NCBI RefSeq assembly: GCF_035594765.1
Contig: NC_085844.1
Span: 204,864,107-204,928,106 of the forward strand
DNA from: Anolis carolinensis
Lineage: Eukaryota
Direction: 5' to 3'
DNA length: 64,000 bases
Shown: positions 26,101 to 44,100 of the stretch, piece after piece
How positions within the stretch are numbered: position 1 is the first letter of the stretch
Layout of the letters: the number at the start of each line of letters is the position of its first letter
Program-made: the position numbers

Positions 26101-29100
26101 TTATTAAAGAAGAAGGATGGCAGAAAAACAAAAGAGACGGACTGGTCCTGTTTGGAGGATTATTTAAAGAAATAAAGAGACTGTAAACAAGTGAAGGCAA
26201 AAACGACAGAAGAGTAGGAAGAGAGAAGCATTAAGACAGGAAGTCGCCACACACCCCCTATTCTCCCCTCTAACTGACCCGTACCTATCATACCTTAGAT
26301 TCACCCAAACTCCCTTCTCCCTTCCCTTCCCCTTCCTTCCTCCCCATTAGTCCTATCTACATACCCCTCCCTTATCAAAGTCAAAACCTTCTCTTTCCTT
26401 CCCTCACTTTCCACCTCCCCTTCCTCCCTCCTTTCCCTTTGTTTCTCCTTTCCCCCCATCCCCAATGTGTTTTGTTTTGTCAAAATTAATAAAAACTATT
26501 TTAAAAAAAAACAAAAAAAAACATCAAATTAGGTTATGATTTCACAAATTAAGCACCAAAACATCATGTTATACAACAAATTTGACAGAAAAAGTAGTTC
26601 AATACGCAGTAATGCTATGTAGTAATTACTGTATTTATGAATTTAGTACCAAAATATCACGACTACAAAAATGCGTTGGATAATCCAGAACCTTGGATAA
26701 GTGAGTGTTGGATAAGTGAGACTCTACTGTACTAGTTATTCTTCCTTTCTTATTTTCTGTTTCTATCTGTACTATTTTCAGTGATCCATAGGACACCAAT
26801 TATAACATCCCGGTTGGCTAAAAATCCTGCCAGCAGTCTAACTGACCTGTCTTTTACAGTTCATTTTGTTGAATTCTAATTTCCTTGGATTGATTGTGCA
26901 TCACATCTGTAAATGGAACAAAACAAAGTTGATTGTAACTCAGAACACTTGATTATTATTTTCTGTCTCTATGTGTACTACTGCCCAATTCAAACAATTA
27001 TGGGAAAGAATTCTCATTCACCTAACATTTGCTAAATTGGGCTGAAAGAAGTCTATCCTTGTGGCAGTTACCCACATTTCAAGTTTGCTGAAAACAACAA
27101 CATGCTCAGTTGGTCTATTTGTGATCTCTGTTAAAGCAACTTGAGCACATTTAGTAGTAGATCAGATGCAACTCTACATCATTCTGCCAGAAGACCTTCT
27201 CACACCTGGCTTGGAAGTATAGCTTCAAGGACAAAAATAGAAGGCTATGACTAATGGATGTGAATAGATTCATTTATTATTCTGGTCATAATTTATTATT
27301 ATAATAATTTATTATTCAGTGGGACTAAAGAGAAGATGTTTAGATTCTTTCCCTTTATTAATGCAAGACAACAAACAATGTTTGGGGGTCATTTGCTTCC
27401 TATGCATGTATAAAAACCATGGACTAACATGGTACCATATGTTGTTTTTCTTTTCCACATAACACTGCATTCCTGCAGTTTTTTCTTATATCATACAAAT
27501 GTCATTGAAATGTACAATATAGTAAATATTATTCATAATGTGCCATTTTCCTACATGGATACAAACATCTTACACTCATGATTCTTTGAGTTCAGACACC
27601 ACACTTTTTACATGGCACAAAAAAACTAACCATAATTAGAAAACAACTGCCATGTTCAGGTGTAAAGTTACTGACTTATCCCTTTCTCTGTGAAAGTAAC
27701 AGAGGACAATGATTTTAAAGACAGGAGCTTGTAGTAATGATCTCTATACTCCTAAATATTTAAAGACATATGAACCAAATGAAATGTTAAAATTAAGGCA
27801 TTATACAACAGATAAACTGTGTCTGTGGGCCTGCACGGTCATCATTAACCATCCTCTTGAATACTTACCATGCAAATATTTAATTGTTGCACTCTCTTTT
27901 TCTTGAGTTTGCAGTCTGTCTGGAATTAATGATTAACTTTTCAGAAATAATACATAATTATGCAAGGCTTTTCTTATAATAGCATCTGCACTAGTTCGAA
28001 AAAGAATGACACCTAGCTCTAACCTACAGAAGTCAAAGGAAAATTCTCCCTACTGGTTTATGCAAATCCTTTCCTTTTCTGAATCCATCTGAGTCAGGGT
28101 TGTGATGTCATACTGCATTAATTATACAGTGTACATACAACCTTAATTGCTACAGAGAAAATTCTGAAGCTATGTTGCAAATAGGTGGTCAGTACCTCCT
28201 CTCTGCCTAAACCTTAGAAGTGTTGTGACCCAGCTTCCCACTTCTACAAATGTCTTACTTTCCACTGCACTGAGATTCTCCACTGAAAGCCTGTTGTCTT
28301 CTTTGACATTATCAGGTTTAGCGGAGAGACTTGTGCATTCACTCTCCAAGTCCTGCAGGTTTTGGTGCAACTGAGAGTTCTGAGTCTCTGGCTGCTGCAA
28401 AGAGAACAACCAGAAGAGCAAAGGGCTGGTTAGCAAAATAAATGATGAGTCTGTATGGTTCCTCCATATAAATAAATATTGATCTACACACATACATTTG
28501 AAAAGAGTAAGCCATTTAGTCCCTTAATTTTTTTAAAGGGCTAATTCAATGCGTTAAAAGAGAAAAAAAATGCCAGCTACCATAATGAACATTTGTGCTG
28601 ATCCTTTAAGTGTGCCTCTCAGTGCTTCATCATACTTTTTGCTGATTTGCTTCCAAACACTATCTTAATTTTTAAAAAGGTTTAAAAGTGGCACATTTCA
28701 ATTAGTAGTTGTCTTGCTTATGATGTGGGCATGTCCAGCTCTTTAGGACATATGGAGAAAAGGGGAAAAAAGGGTGGAAACATTCCAACCATAGGGAGAG
28801 GGGAATAATACACGCCTGCTTTGATCACCACAATTCACACAATGATAAAAAGAAATCTCACATTTCATTTAGGAAGAAGTCACTCCAGAATACTATGGAA
28901 AAAGAAGTGAAGCAACACAAAACTTTTGATTGGTAGAAAAGCATCCGATTTCAAAAAGTATGTACAGGAATACCATATTTATTCCTCTTAACATCTTTGC
29001 TCTATCTGGACCAGCCCACAGAATGACATTTTCAGAGATGAAAGCTGGACTTAATATGGTTCCAGAAGATAATAGGCTTTCTAGTCTGCATTAAGCATTT

Positions 29101-41100: not shown

Positions 41101-44100
41101 GTTTTTGTGTCAGAAAGTGGAGGCACTTCTGTCATTCCAAGCTCTTCAATTCTTACATTCCTCCTTCTGAGAAATTCTTTTTGTCGTGGGTTTTGGAGTT
41201 GCATATTGGTCCCTTTCCTTTGGTGTTTATCCTTAAGATGGGATGAGGTCCAGCTTTTCCTTTTAAGCTGGACTTCATGCCTCTCCTGCAGGCGCTCATA
41301 TTTTTCTTCATAACTCTCAGGATGAGGGCGGCGATGGATATGCGACTGACAAAATCTAGAAAGCATGTTCACTGCATAAGTCCCAACGGTGCACAACTTA
41401 GTATATATATCAGAGAGATTTTTTTCTGTGGAAATCAAAAGAAAACAAGTCAGCACTATATAGGGTGTACAATTTTGTGCATCACTGTATATTTCTTTAT
41501 CGCTGTGTGTCACTACACAATATTATAAAATCAAACATTCTGTTGTGGACAAATATTCTGAGTTCCTACCATAGGAAAACCGTCCTCATTTCAAGTTATA
41601 CTTTCAGTTTTCAAGCCCAACACACTTATTCTAGGAGCTACAAATTTAGTACTGTTATGTTATTTAGCCTTCAATAACATTTCCCAAGAAAATATAGAAA
41701 ATAACTAGTGTAATGTTAGTTTGGAAAAGAATTATTCATCCAATCAAATGTTTGGAATATTGTTTTTAAAAAAGCCTTGCTTATGATGGAAAATACATGT
41801 AATACCCTAAGCATTAAAATTAGTTGCTGTCTTGAATCCCACTCTTGAGAAAAAAGTGAGAATTAAAGTGAGCCAATCAGTCGAATAAATGAAATTAATA
41901 CTGCTGAACTACAAAGGTATCCAATGTGGTGCCCATTTTAGCTTCATTTTTAGACTAGAACCATTACTGTAACATCCCCAGAACCACTGCTAATTGTGGC
42001 TATGGCTATTTTAGAAAGTGGGGTATCTTCCCTCAACTCCTGTTTTACATTTGCATCTTCTGCTTATGTGCATTATTTGGGAATCATCAAATGAGCAGTT
42101 AAAGAAAATTCTTTACTATTCTTTACTATTCCTGGAAACAAAAAAATCACATATTTCTGAAGGCAAAGTTCATTGTAACAATGGACAGTTGTAGCACTTC
42201 ATTTTAATTAATGTCTGCTTACCTCCTCCAGTGGCTTTCTTTTTCACATTCTACACTCTGTCCAAATTCTACTGTATTCCAGATGCTGTGTTATATCCCT
42301 TAATGATAAAACTTTAAATGCATTTACATTCACTTTGAAGGTGTAAAAGCTGAACCTGAAAAACTACTGCTCAAAGCCAGAGATTAATTTTGCTTCTACT
42401 TACTTGTTCTTCTGTGTTTATCTGACTATAATCCAAAAAACCTAAGTGGGTAGTACTATAATTCTGTCAGAAGAATGGGGGCCTTTGTCAAAGCATTACC
42501 TCGCTACTCTGTGGTATATGAAGTATGATTTATTAATTTTTACTTTTCCTAATTAAAACTTTGATGAGTCATGTGTTGCAATTTTGCTTGCCACAGGGAG
42601 TCCAAAGGGTTTAGGTTCTTTTCTTTTCTACTAGACATTGTAAGGAGAGAAAAGTGAACATACTTTCAAGAACCTTCACCCACATATTATTCTTGCTTCT
42701 CCATGGCTACTGACTGTGAGACACTCTGTGCCTTGAGCCAGTGGGTTAATCCCTGTAAGAAGGTTCATGTGAGCAAGCCAGGCACTCTGGAAAGAAGGTT
42801 GAAATGAAACTGGCAAATTTTGGAGTTAGATGGTTTGCTGGGTGGACACAGCACTAGTTTTGAATGATCTGAAAAGGTTTCTGGCATGCTTCTATGATTA
42901 ATTAAAGGTACACTAGAGTCTCACTTATCCAACATAAATGGGCCGGCAGAATGTTGGATAAGCGAATATGTTGGATAATAATGAGGGATTAAGAAAAAGT
43001 CTATTAAACATCGAATTAGGTTATGATTTTACAAATTAAGCACCAAAACATCATGTTATACAACAAATTTGACAGAAAAAGTAGTTCAATACGCAGTAAT
43101 GCTATGTAGTAATTACTGTCTTTATTTTGGGGCTAGCGTGGTCTTTGAACTGAAGGCACCCAGTAGATAGACAATCGATATTCATTGAAAAGACTGCTGC
43201 AAACCCACTTACAGAAGTGTTAGAATGCTATGCATAGTATATAGGGGTTCTTACCTTAGGCATTGATATTTTCAGGGCAGCAAGGTGGGGATTCTTGTGC
43301 TTCTGTTTTCTTTCACTGGACTTCTCTGTACATCGTTAATTTTCATATTCAATTAAGGCACCCGTACACACATTCAGAATATAGTTTCGAGCAAGGTGGG
43401 AACAAGACTTATTGAAATAGCTATGAAAAGCTTTTAAAACATTGTGCTCCCATTTATGTTTAAGTAACATTTCTTCTGTTATCTACAGCAACATGATCTC
43501 TTATTCCAGCAATGCTTTGTTGTTGAGTTTCCTGACCTTTATTTTAGATCATTACTATAACTCTATAGTGCTCTTTTCTTATTGAAAGACATATTCCACT
43601 TTCAGTTGGTATGTGTGTTGTTATTGCGTGCAGTTCCTCCATATGTGCTTGTTGCAGTGCTACAGCGAATTTGATTTATAAGGTGAAAATTATAGTCAGT
43701 CTTTGGGTAATGATGTGCCTTTTGTTAGGGGAGATGGTATGGAATCCACTATTGTTATAGAAAGGATCACTGTTGAATTTACTGTATTTACGAATTTAGC
43801 ACCAAAATATCATGATGTATTGAAAACATTGACTACAAAAATGCATTGGATAATCCAGAACGTTGGATAAGTGAGTGTTGGATAAGTGAGACTCTACTGT
43901 ATATGTTTCTGTAATTTAAAACCCTTTTTTGGTTTGGGATGAAGGCATGGTTCGCCAGCTACATTCATGCTGTGGATATGAAAACATGGACAGTCACACC
44001 CCATTAAATGAAATGGAGGCGCTTTTACTAGCATTTTGGTGGCACAGTGCATTAAAGCGCTGAGCTGCTGAACTTGCGGACCAAAAGGTTCCAGGTTCAA

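What the first reader, a model, noticed from the sequence alone, without database searches (positions are those of the whole stretch)
26847..41366. Predicted ~404-aa TRAF3IP3 paralogue lacking the C-terminal coiled coil and transmembrane tail anchor
Seen: 1162 nt of stop-free, phase-compatible coding exons plus 53 nt to TAA at 26856-26854, giving 404 aa. No exons resembling the last ~100 aa of T3JAM were recognisable before the left inversion boundary at ~24.45 kb. Known: T3JAM is a tail-anchored lymphoid coiled-coil adaptor related to SLMAP. Inference: this is a lineage-specific soluble or re-targeted variant that might act as a decoy or have a new function. Intact splice sites on every exon, despite heavy divergence, argue that it is functional.
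Basis: partly seen in the sequence, partly recalled or inferred. Interest (0 to 1): 0.75.

Follow-up and report, generated by a model that had tools for sequence, protein, structure and literature searches.

The report
Anole TRAF3IP3 gene lacking membrane anchor
This is the green anole lizard's already-annotated TRAF3IP3 immune-adaptor gene, whose predicted protein stops before the membrane anchor that the mouse protein needs, so it is a known gene with an unusual and still untested short end.

Summary
On the minus strand, 12 coding exons (41366 to 26854; 1162 + 53 = 1215 nt; 11 of 11 introns GT-AG) give 404 aa. That protein is already public: it matches, exon by exon, NCBI's 'TRAF3-interacting JNK-activating modulator isoform X1 [Anolis carolinensis]', 404 aa.

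'Paralogue' is not supported. The gene sits beside HSD11B1 and branches with Anolis sagrei inside the pleurodont iguanians. The only extra copy is a dead, inverted relic of promoter plus exon 1 at 51.8-54.8 kb.

The missing tail looks real at this locus:
- tblastn and an 11-species profile find none of the roughly 120 C-terminal residues on either strand of the 64 kb.
- Control profiles recover exons of 18 aa or more at 32-65 bits.
- A. sagrei's 414-aa model ends in the same 60-nt exon.

Short anchor-less isoforms are also named in three other lizard genera, which lowers the surprise.

Live exon 1 has changed about three times less than its neutral relic (6 versus 17 changes, p = 0.035), which suggests constraint.

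The product is most likely a soluble coiled-coil STRIPAK/TRAF3 adaptor. No transcripts, whole-gene dN/dS or other anole genomes could be checked.

The parts
41085..41366 (-). Coding exon 1 (282 nt, ATG at 41366-41364, donor GT at 41084)
   Evidence: 100% identity to P0001 residues 1-94. Sequence read.
40174..40306 (-). Coding exon 2 (133 nt)
   Evidence: Exact match to P0001 residues 95-138 plus a split codon, with AG/GT flanks.
39690..39747 (-). Coding exon 3 (58 nt)
   Evidence: Exact match. A profile built without the Anolis rows finds it at 34.7 bits.
38899..38923 (-). Coding exon 4 (25 nt)
   Evidence: Exact match to P0001 residues 159-166 with AG/GT flanks. Too short for tblastn to list.
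38085..38114 (-). Coding exon 5 (30 nt)
   Evidence: Exact match to P0001 residues 167-176.
36115..36210 (-). Coding exon 6 (96 nt). This helix is conserved across squamates, and both Anolis species carry the same altered version.
   Evidence: Exact match to P0001 residues 177-208. Protein sequences compared.
33049..33120 (-). Coding exon 7 (72 nt)
   Evidence: Exact match. Control profile 32.5 bits.
31613..31753 (-). Coding exon 8 (141 nt)
   Evidence: Exact match. Control profile 65.5 bits.
29811..29948 (-). Coding exon 9 (138 nt)
   Evidence: Exact match. Control profile 63.4 bits.
28259..28394 (-). Coding exon 10 (136 nt)
   Evidence: Exact match. Control profile 50.1 bits.
27869..27919 (-). 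Coding exon 11 (51 nt). This is the last exon shared with all squamate orthologues.
   Evidence: Exact match to P0001 residues 372-387. C-terminal alignment.
26847..26906 (-). Terminal 60-nt exon. The coding part is 26906-26854 and the TAA is at 26856-26854. The donor gtcagt is kept after 26847. The TAA stands where A. sagrei and Phrynosoma read Q.
   Evidence: Protein ends.
25824..25897 (-). Tandem second copy of the terminal exon (74 nt). AG and GT are kept and there is no in-frame stop inside it. Read through the donor, it stops at 25817-25815.
   Evidence: Direct repeat 25760-25919 / 26782-26928 at 75.8% identity. Alignment, sequence, tblastn.
51836..54791 (+). Inverted, decayed duplicate of promoter, exon 1 and the first 157 nt of intron 1 (it matches 42521-40928). 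The exon-1 relic is at 54451-54673. It has ATG changed to ATA, a 2-nt deletion and a 97-nt deletion that removes the donor.
8288..11770 (+). Neighbouring gene HSD11B1. Two exons were recognised, at about 8309-8509 and 11480-11641. It is convergent with TRAF3IP3.
   Evidence: Pfam adh_short at E = 7.5e-11 and 8.6e-07. All 23 of 23 PDB hits are 11-beta-hydroxysteroid dehydrogenase 1, best E = 1.8e-17.

Best explanation
The interval is the green anole's own TRAF3IP3 (T3JAM) gene. It is the orthologue, not a paralogue, and NCBI has already modelled it as a 404-aa protein.

It keeps the conserved N-terminal region and most of the central coiled coil, spread over 11 exons shared with other squamates. 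It then ends in a 60-nt exon that exists only in pleurodont iguanians (Anolis, Sceloporus, Phrynosoma). The four canonical last exons are not present at the locus. In other squamates these encode about 120 residues: a linker, the distal coiled coil and the tail anchor.

The truncation is older than the split between A. carolinensis and A. sagrei. The TAA in A. carolinensis is a late, minor change, 4 codons before the point where the A. sagrei model stops.

Inferred mechanism. The product is a soluble cytosolic coiled-coil adaptor. It can still pair with SIKE1/FGFR1OP2-STRIPAK, and probably with TRAF3 and MEK, through the retained coiled coil. It cannot tether them to Golgi, ER or lysosome membranes. 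Anoles therefore appear to keep only the anchor-less form, which other lizards are predicted to make alongside the anchored one.

Shown: gene identity, exon structure, absence of the 3' exons from the window, absence of a hydrophobic segment, and slower change of live exon 1 than of its neutral relic. Inferred: expression, solubility, binding partners and biological role.
For: Identity:
- Exon 1 is 100% identical to P0001, 'TRAF3-interacting JNK-activating modulator isoform X1 [Anolis carolinensis]', 404 aa, E = 3.3e-53. This was the top hit of 9 at E <= 0.001 among 23 candidates.
- All 12 exons map exactly to P0001.

Orthology:
- In a tree of 16 squamate proteins, the two Anolis rows sit with Sceloporus and Phrynosoma (SH-aLRT 100).
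- HSD11B1 is the neighbouring gene.

Missing tail:
- tblastn with the C-terminal parts of three proteins found only the terminal exon and its copy. The next best hit had E = 0.31 and contained a stop.
- A profile of 11 squamate C-termini scored at most 4.5 bits over 4427 six-frame ORFs. The best scores in 10 shuffled windows were 4.0-9.5 bits.
- Control profiles built without the Anolis rows found exons 8, 9, 10, 7 and 3 at 65.5, 63.4, 50.1, 32.5 and 34.7 bits.
- Maximum hydropathy is 0.42 in both Anolis proteins. 9 of the 18 squamate proteins examined have a C-terminal anchor scoring 1.97 or more.
- A. sagrei's 414-aa model ends in the same exon.

Constraint: over 74 comparable codons of exon 1 there are 25 amino-acid differences from the relic. 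6 fall on the live lineage, 17 on the relic and 2 are ambiguous (binomial p = 0.035). All 11 introns are GT-AG.

Role of the missing part (passages read):
- Mouse TRAF3IP3 lacking its C-terminal 25 residues is cytosolic. It fails to recruit MEK to the Golgi and fails to rescue thymocyte development (PMC4516800).
- Residues 188-513 of human TRAF3IP3 bind SIKE1 (PMC6323126).
- The transmembrane part, residues 521-551, brings STRN3 to the ER (PMC12061266).
Against: - No transcript evidence was available. The 404-aa and 414-aa proteins are computational models.
- The window ends 26.8 kb downstream of the stop and 22.6 kb upstream of the ATG. Displaced 3' exons could lie outside it.
- The profile cannot see exons of 8-16 aa. 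Exons 4, 5 and 11 were not above noise. A short or strongly diverged anchor exon cannot be excluded outright.
- The constraint test rests on 74 codons of one exon.
- Between the two copies, the exon part is no better conserved (186 of 224, 83%) than the flanks (41 of 48 and 108 of 121).
- The Anolis stem branch is long, 0.41 against 0.10-0.13 for the Sceloporus and Phrynosoma tips. That fits relaxed constraint as well as a change of role.
- Whole-gene dN/dS could not be computed, because no A. sagrei DNA was available.
- A heptad test on the six coiled-coil exons was inconclusive. Only 2 of 6 reached p < 0.05, at 0.049 and 0.040.
- Pfam gave no family for P0001 or for any of the exon frames.
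Confidence: 0.68

Rival explanations
1. Decaying unitary gene. After losing its anchor exons, the anole gene is no longer useful, and the open 404-codon frame is a remnant on its way to becoming a pseudogene.
For: - The Anolis stem branch is 0.41 substitutions per column, about 3-4 times the Sceloporus and Phrynosoma tip branches.
- Identity to Sceloporus is only 66%, and to A. sagrei only 85%.
- The transmembrane part is required for the known mouse functions (PMC4516800, passages read).
- Exon 1 is no better conserved than its flanks in the comparison of the two copies.
- The stop position in the last exon differs between A. carolinensis, A. sagrei and Sceloporus.
Against: - Both anole species keep open frames of 404 and 414 codons.
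- In A. carolinensis, 11 of 11 introns are GT-AG.
- The truncation predates their split.
- Live exon 1 took 6 changes against 17 on the neutral relic (p = 0.035).
- The altered exon-6 helix is identical in the two anoles.
- Within the genus, the tip branches (0.048 and 0.12) are no longer than those of other iguanians.
Confidence: 0.15
2. Only the short isoform was seen. As in Sceloporus, Elgaria and Heteronotia, the 404-aa product is an alternative 3'-end isoform. A full-length anchored isoform also exists, and its last exons lie outside the window or escaped detection.
For: - 'X2' isoforms of 418, 414 and 428 aa that stop just after the same exon are named in three other lizard genera.
- The terminal exon is 60 nt long and keeps its donor, so skipping it would preserve the frame.
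- Short exons are invisible to the profile.
- The window covers only 26.8 kb beyond the stop.
Against: - Neither the roughly 38-aa distal coiled-coil exon nor the roughly 30-aa anchor exon is found on either strand of the 64 kb. Both are well conserved in 9 squamates. Exons of 18-47 aa in the same gene are found easily.
- HSD11B1, on the opposite strand, begins to occupy the downstream space by 11.6 kb.
- NCBI's longest model ('X1') for A. carolinensis is the 404-aa form, and A. sagrei's only listed model is 414 aa.
- The two database searches with C-terminal regions returned no Anolis protein (9 and 4 hits). Those searches are word-limited, so this is weak evidence.
Confidence: 0.1
3. This is a lineage-specific paralogue (a truncated duplicate), and the canonical anchored orthologue sits elsewhere or has been lost.
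For: - An inverted duplicate of promoter plus exon 1 exists 13 kb away. Duplication has therefore touched this locus, and that event predates the split of the two anoles.
- TRAF3IP3 and HSD11B1 are convergent here. From memory, untested here, they are in tandem in human.
Against: - The duplicate covers only 1.6 kb of the gene and is dead (ATG lost, frameshift, donor deleted).
- No exons 2-12 lie on the plus strand to its right.
- The tree gives the species-tree position.
- NCBI names this gene TRAF3IP3, and the exon-1 search returned one A. carolinensis cluster only.
Confidence: 0.07

Closest known systems
Mammalian TRAF3IP3 / T3JAM (tail-anchored lymphoid adaptor, STRIPAK component)
   Same: Orthologous by name, tree position and neighbourhood. 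It has the same conserved N-terminal motifs and central coiled-coil region. In the human protein that region (residues 188-513) binds SIKE1 (PMC6323126, passages read).
   Different: It lacks the last 120 or so residues that other squamate orthologues carry, including the hydrophobic tail. In mouse that tail is needed for Golgi localisation, MEK recruitment and thymocyte development (PMC4516800, passages read).
Predicted short 'X2' isoforms of TRAF3IP3 in Sceloporus undulatus, Elgaria multicarinata and Heteronotia binoei
   Same: These are 414-428 aa long and stop 2-15 residues after the same exon (anole exon 11), so they have no anchor. The Sceloporus form ends inside the same pleurodont-specific exon.
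   Different: Their 'X2' label implies a further isoform in those species, which I did not see. In Anolis the short form is the longest model ('X1'), and the anchor exons are not at the locus.
Mouse TRAF3IP3 delta-TM construct (Zou et al. 2015)
   Same: This is an experimental version of an anchor-less TRAF3IP3. It is cytosolic and stably expressed (PMC4516800, passages read).
   Different: The construct lacks only 25 residues. The anole protein lacks about 120 and has also changed widely elsewhere (66% identity to Sceloporus).
SLMAP (paralogue of TRAF3IP3 in STRIPAK)
   Same: It is a coiled-coil partner of SIKE1/FGFR1OP2 and is called the paralogue of TRAF3IP3 in PMC6323126 (passages read).
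   Different: From memory, SLMAP has an N-terminal FHA domain and its own tail anchors. No Pfam domain of any kind, FHA included, was found in P0001. The closest relatives of the anole gene are all named TRAF3IP3.

Membership tests
TRAF3IP3 / T3JAM orthologue group (membership by descent) | Sequence similarity along the whole shared length to proteins named TRAF3IP3 | tested here: met
   Exon 1 gave 9 hits at E <= 0.001, 7 named TRAF3IP3 and 2 called 'hypothetical protein' by NCBI (one of which UniRef names TRAF3 interacting protein 3). They range from 100% identity (A. carolinensis) to 46%. tblastn with Phrynosoma, Varanus and Naja proteins finds most of the same exons, in the same order. Identity over the aligned length runs from 49% to 85%.
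TRAF3IP3 / T3JAM orthologue group (membership by descent) | Tree position that follows the species tree | tested here: met
   Anolis carolinensis and A. sagrei group together (SH-aLRT 100) inside Sceloporus + Phrynosoma (100). Acrodont iguanians come next (82). The tree has 16 rows. P0006, P0014, P0015 and P0016 were left out as partial or aberrant.
TRAF3IP3 / T3JAM orthologue group (membership by descent) | Conserved neighbourhood (next to HSD11B1) | tested here: inconclusive
   HSD11B1 exons lie at 8.3-11.6 kb on the plus strand, so adjacency is met. That the two genes are neighbours in other vertebrates, and in which orientation, is recalled and not tested. No eukaryotic genome collection was on hand.
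TRAF3IP3 / T3JAM orthologue group (membership by descent) | Central coiled coil | tested here: inconclusive
   Exons 6-11 align to the region that is coiled coil in the orthologues. They have few Pro or Gly residues and many charged ones. A per-exon heptad test reached p < 0.05 in only 2 of 6 exons. No structure was predicted.
TRAF3IP3 / T3JAM orthologue group (membership by descent) | Pfam family PF27557.1 (precomputed label on all hits; its name is not in the local Pfam copy) | not testable with these tools
   The label is carried by P0001-P0020. The local Pfam scan returned 0 families for P0001.
Tail-anchored membrane proteins | A single hydrophobic segment at the extreme C-terminus | tested here: not met
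   The best 19-residue Kyte-Doolittle mean is 0.42 in both Anolis proteins, and it is internal. 9 of the 18 squamate proteins examined have a C-terminal segment scoring 1.97-2.26. No anchor exon is in the window.
SLMAP | N-terminal FHA domain (recalled feature) | tested here: not met
   The Pfam scan of P0001 and of the exon frames found no FHA domain or any other family.

The most novel reading that the evidence does not exclude
Anoles lost the tail-anchor exons of their only TRAF3IP3 gene before A. carolinensis and A. sagrei split. A burst of protein change followed on the stem lineage, and the soluble remainder has since been kept under selection. A membrane tether that is essential for Golgi and lysosome signalling in mouse T cells would then have become an obligately cytosolic STRIPAK/TRAF3 adaptor in a whole lizard genus. 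That implies either rewired lymphocyte signalling or compensation by SLMAP.
Probability: 0.35. Interest if true: 0.5.

Novelty: new variant of a known kind. Interest (0 to 1): 0.3.

Why it matters
The gene and its 404-aa product are already in RefSeq and UniRef, so the prediction itself adds nothing new.

What may matter is the comparison. In mouse, the C-terminal anchor is needed for TRAF3IP3 to sit on the Golgi and to support thymocyte development (PMC4516800). Two anole species appear to carry only an anchor-less gene that still looks constrained. If transcripts confirm this, anoles would be a natural 'delta-TM' experiment. It could show which TRAF3IP3 functions need membrane tethering, and whether the short isoforms predicted in other lizards have a role of their own.

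I found no paper that describes this. Only one paper in the library holds both 'TRAF3IP3' and 'Anolis'. It merely lists the gene among predicted microRNA targets.

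Tried and rejected
Searches that gave nothing useful:
- Pfam on ten exon-bearing frames found nothing above its cut-offs.
- Pfam on P0001 and P0004 found 0 families.
- Pfam on 130 further ORFs of 62 aa or more, from 11.7-26.8 kb and 41.6-64 kb, found only two reverse-transcriptase fragments at 60.9-61.6 kb. No other gene was detected there.
- The PDB sequence search with exon 8 gave 0 hits at E <= 1.
- Rfam over the whole window gave 0 hits.
- Tandem Repeats Finder over 23.5-27.5 kb gave only three short arrays of two copies or so.
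- The per-exon heptad test for coiled coil was inconclusive.
- A literature search for splice variants of TRAF3IP3 gave nothing specific.

The other members of the A. carolinensis cluster, possibly further isoforms, stayed unseen.
- I tried to find the last HSD11B1 exon by sending long single-frame translations to the PDB search. The 3' end of HSD11B1 is therefore not mapped.

Idea rejected: that 24.45 kb marks an inversion boundary. The sequence there belongs to a dispersed repeat that matches at least six other stretches of the window in both orientations.

Not done:
- No structure or complex prediction was run.
- No eukaryotic genome collection was available, so other anole and lizard loci stayed unchecked.
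- The closed collections (metagenome contigs, viral contigs) were not searched.
- Supplements of papers were not opened. Supplementary Fig. S7a of PMC6323126, which holds the TRAF3IP3-SIKE1 pulldown, was not seen.

Full report
What the window is. Seven are named TRAF3IP3 or TRAF3-interacting JNK-activating modulator by NCBI or UniRef, and two are 'hypothetical protein' in NCBI, one of them named TRAF3 interacting protein 3 by UniRef. The best hit is P0001, 'isoform X1 [Anolis carolinensis]', 404 aa, at 100% identity over the whole query with E = 3.3e-53.

Checking the observation. Instead I mapped P0001 onto the minus strand exon by exon.
- There are twelve coding exons: 41366-41085, 40306-40174, 39747-39690, 38923-38899, 38114-38085, 36210-36115, 33120-33049, 31753-31613, 29948-29811, 28394-28259, 27919-27869 and 26906-26854.
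- 402 of 404 residues match as whole codons. The other two are split codons whose flanking bases fit.
- All 11 introns are GT-AG.
- The TAA is at 26856-26854.

The last exon. It is naturally 60 nt long (26906-26847) and keeps a donor (gtcagt) 7 nt after the stop. The same exon is read in three other species:
- In A. sagrei (P0002, 414 aa) the model runs four residues further.
- In Phrynosoma (P0004) it is internal and is followed by the canonical C-terminal exons.
- In Sceloporus 'X2' (P0003, 418 aa) it stops earlier.

Acrodont iguanians, snakes, Varanus and Rhineura lack this exon. They pass from the exon matching anole exon 11 straight into the canonical tail. The TAA stands where A. sagrei and Phrynosoma read Q, so it is a late and minor change. 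A tandem second copy of this exon with its flanks lies about 1 kb downstream, at 25897-25824. It is 74 nt long, keeps AG and GT, and has no internal stop. It keeps D and Q where copy A has N and the stop. The first polyA-like hexamers after the stop lie 983 to 1587 nt downstream.

Is the tail really missing? In full-length squamate proteins, about 120 residues follow the last shared exon. They form a linker, a well-conserved distal coiled coil and a hydrophobic anchor.
- tblastn of the C-terminal parts of Phrynosoma, Varanus and Naja against the whole window, at very loose settings, found only the 60-nt exon and its copy. The next hit had E = 0.31 and contained a stop.
- I built a profile from 11 C-termini. 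P0012 and P0014 were dropped because my anchoring pattern did not find their start. Over 4427 six-frame ORFs it scored at most 4.5 bits, while ten shuffled windows gave best scores of 4.0-9.5 bits.
- As a control for sensitivity, profiles of the preceding exons built without the two Anolis rows recovered exons 8, 9 and 10 at 65.5, 63.4 and 50.1 bits, exon 7 (24 aa) at 32.5 bits and exon 3 (18 aa) at 34.7 bits. Exons of 8-16 aa (4, 5 and 11) were not above noise.

The two long, conserved tail exons would therefore have been seen if they were present at ordinary divergence. They are not in the 64 kb on either strand. Hydropathy agrees: the best 19-residue mean is 0.42 in both anole proteins, against a C-terminal segment of 1.97-2.26 in 9 of the 18 squamate proteins examined.

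Orthologue or paralogue?
- A maximum-likelihood tree of 16 squamate proteins (quick search, LG+G4) puts the two anoles together. They sit with Sceloporus and Phrynosoma (SH-aLRT 100), then with the acrodonts (82), as the species tree would predict. Four partial or aberrant rows were left out.
- Two exons of HSD11B1 lie on the plus strand at about 8.3-8.5 and 11.5-11.6 kb. They match Pfam adh_short, and 23 of 23 PDB hits are 11-beta-HSD1. From memory, HSD11B1 is the neighbour of TRAF3IP3 in human, in tandem orientation. Here the two genes are convergent. I could not test the ancestral arrangement.
- The only other TRAF3IP3-like sequence in the window is an inverted duplicate of 1.6 kb (42521-40928), found at 51836-54791. 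It covers promoter, exon 1 and 157 nt of intron 1.
- Its exon 1 is dead: ATG has become ATA, a 2-nt deletion shifts the frame, and a 97-nt deletion removes the donor. No exons 2-12 follow it.

'Paralogue' is not supported.

Is it under constraint? The dead copy serves as an internal neutral yardstick. Over 74 comparable codons, exon 1 and the relic differ at 25 residues. I polarised these with A. sagrei and six outgroup proteins. 6 changes fall on the live lineage, 17 on the relic and 2 are ambiguous (binomial p = 0.035). That is a ratio of about 0.35, from a small sample.

The relic keeps the outgroup residue at positions 2, 7 and 10, where both anoles are derived. The duplication is therefore older than their split.

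Several results point the other way:
- The exon part of the two copies is no more alike (186 of 224) than the flanks (41 of 48 and 108 of 121).
- Differing codons are 25 non-synonymous to 6 synonymous.
- The Anolis stem branch is 0.41 substitutions per column, against 0.10-0.13 for the Sceloporus and Phrynosoma tips, while the anole tips are 0.048 and 0.12.

I read this as fast change on the stem followed by ordinary constraint, but relaxed constraint is not excluded. A proper dN/dS needs coding DNA from other anoles, which I did not have.

What it most likely does. From passages I read:
- Mouse TRAF3IP3 without its last 25 residues is cytosolic. It does not bring MEK to the Golgi and does not rescue thymocyte development (PMC4516800).
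- Human residues 188-513, the coiled coil, bind SIKE1 directly (PMC6323126).
- The transmembrane part, residues 521-551, brings STRN3 to the ER (PMC12061266).

The anole protein keeps the N-terminal region and most of the coiled coil but not the anchor. The best-supported reading is a soluble adaptor that can still enter STRIPAK through SIKE1/FGFR1OP2, and may bind TRAF3 and MEK, but cannot place them on a membrane.

Anchor-less 'X2' isoforms ending just after the same exon are named in Sceloporus, Elgaria and Heteronotia. A soluble form is therefore probably old in squamates, and anoles seem to have kept only that one. Whether it competes with SLMAP, acts as a decoy or has another role is untested.

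One paper lists traf3ip3 among predicted microRNA targets, taken from 3' UTRs of an A. carolinensis annotation. That shows only that the gene had an annotated 3' UTR (PMC4858913, passages read).

Novelty and verdict. The sequence and its name are already public. The absence of the anchor is real at this locus, is shared with a second anole model, and was not found described in print by my searches. Interest is modest: a known gene with a lineage-specific short end, needing transcripts and whole-genome searches before more is claimed.

Left open:
- all other lizard genomes;
- paper supplements.

Noticed in passing
window 51836-54791 (+), exon-1 relic at 54451-54673: An inverted, decayed duplicate of the TRAF3IP3 promoter, exon 1 and the start of intron 1 (78-91% identity in five blocks). 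The start codon is lost, there is a 2-nt frameshift, and a 97-nt deletion removes the donor. It keeps ancestral residues where both anole species are derived, so it predates their split. The two copies flank a 9.3-kb spacer as an inverted repeat.
   Followed up: yes
window 25824-25897 (-), repeat 25760-25919 versus 26782-26928: A tandem duplicate of the terminal 60-nt exon with its splice sites. It is 14 nt longer and has no internal stop. Used in place of copy A, it would give a different short C-terminus. A dispersed-repeat copy and a CT-rich stretch lie between the two copies.
   Followed up: partly
window 8288-8731 and 11351-11770 (+): Two exons of HSD11B1 (short-chain dehydrogenase; all PDB hits are 11-beta-HSD1). 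The gene is convergent with TRAF3IP3, and its last exon was not located. From memory, the two genes are in tandem in human, which would imply a rearrangement. This was not tested.
   Followed up: partly
window 23983-24302, 25942-26060, 26519-26731, 42909-43124, 43771-43902, 52875-53220, 53316-53446: A dispersed repeat of about 120-340 bp seen in at least seven stretches (two of which look like one copy split by an insertion), in both orientations, at 76-97% identity. The family was not identified.
   Followed up: partly
window 41048-41084 (-), just after the exon-1 donor: Reading through the exon-1 donor gives a peptide that aligns with the longer exon-1 form of Phrynosoma and Varanus. In the anole it is closed by a stop after 12 codons. 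The in-frame sequence upstream of the ATG resembles the N-terminal extensions of the Pogona, Candoia and Rhineura isoforms.
   Followed up: no
window 16879-17568 (-): This is the longest open frame in the window (230 aa) and has no Pfam family. The protein atlas places it near clusters where 60% of members carry zf-RVT. It is therefore probably the tail of a LINE ORF2, lying in the space between HSD11B1 and TRAF3IP3.
   Followed up: partly
window 54917-55539 versus 56628-55819, and 60884-61639: A pair of inverted repeats of 155 and about 480 bp (87-94% identity) sits just right of the exon-1 relic, where homology to the live gene ends. Reverse-transcriptase fragments lie on both strands at 60.9-61.6 kb.
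   Followed up: no
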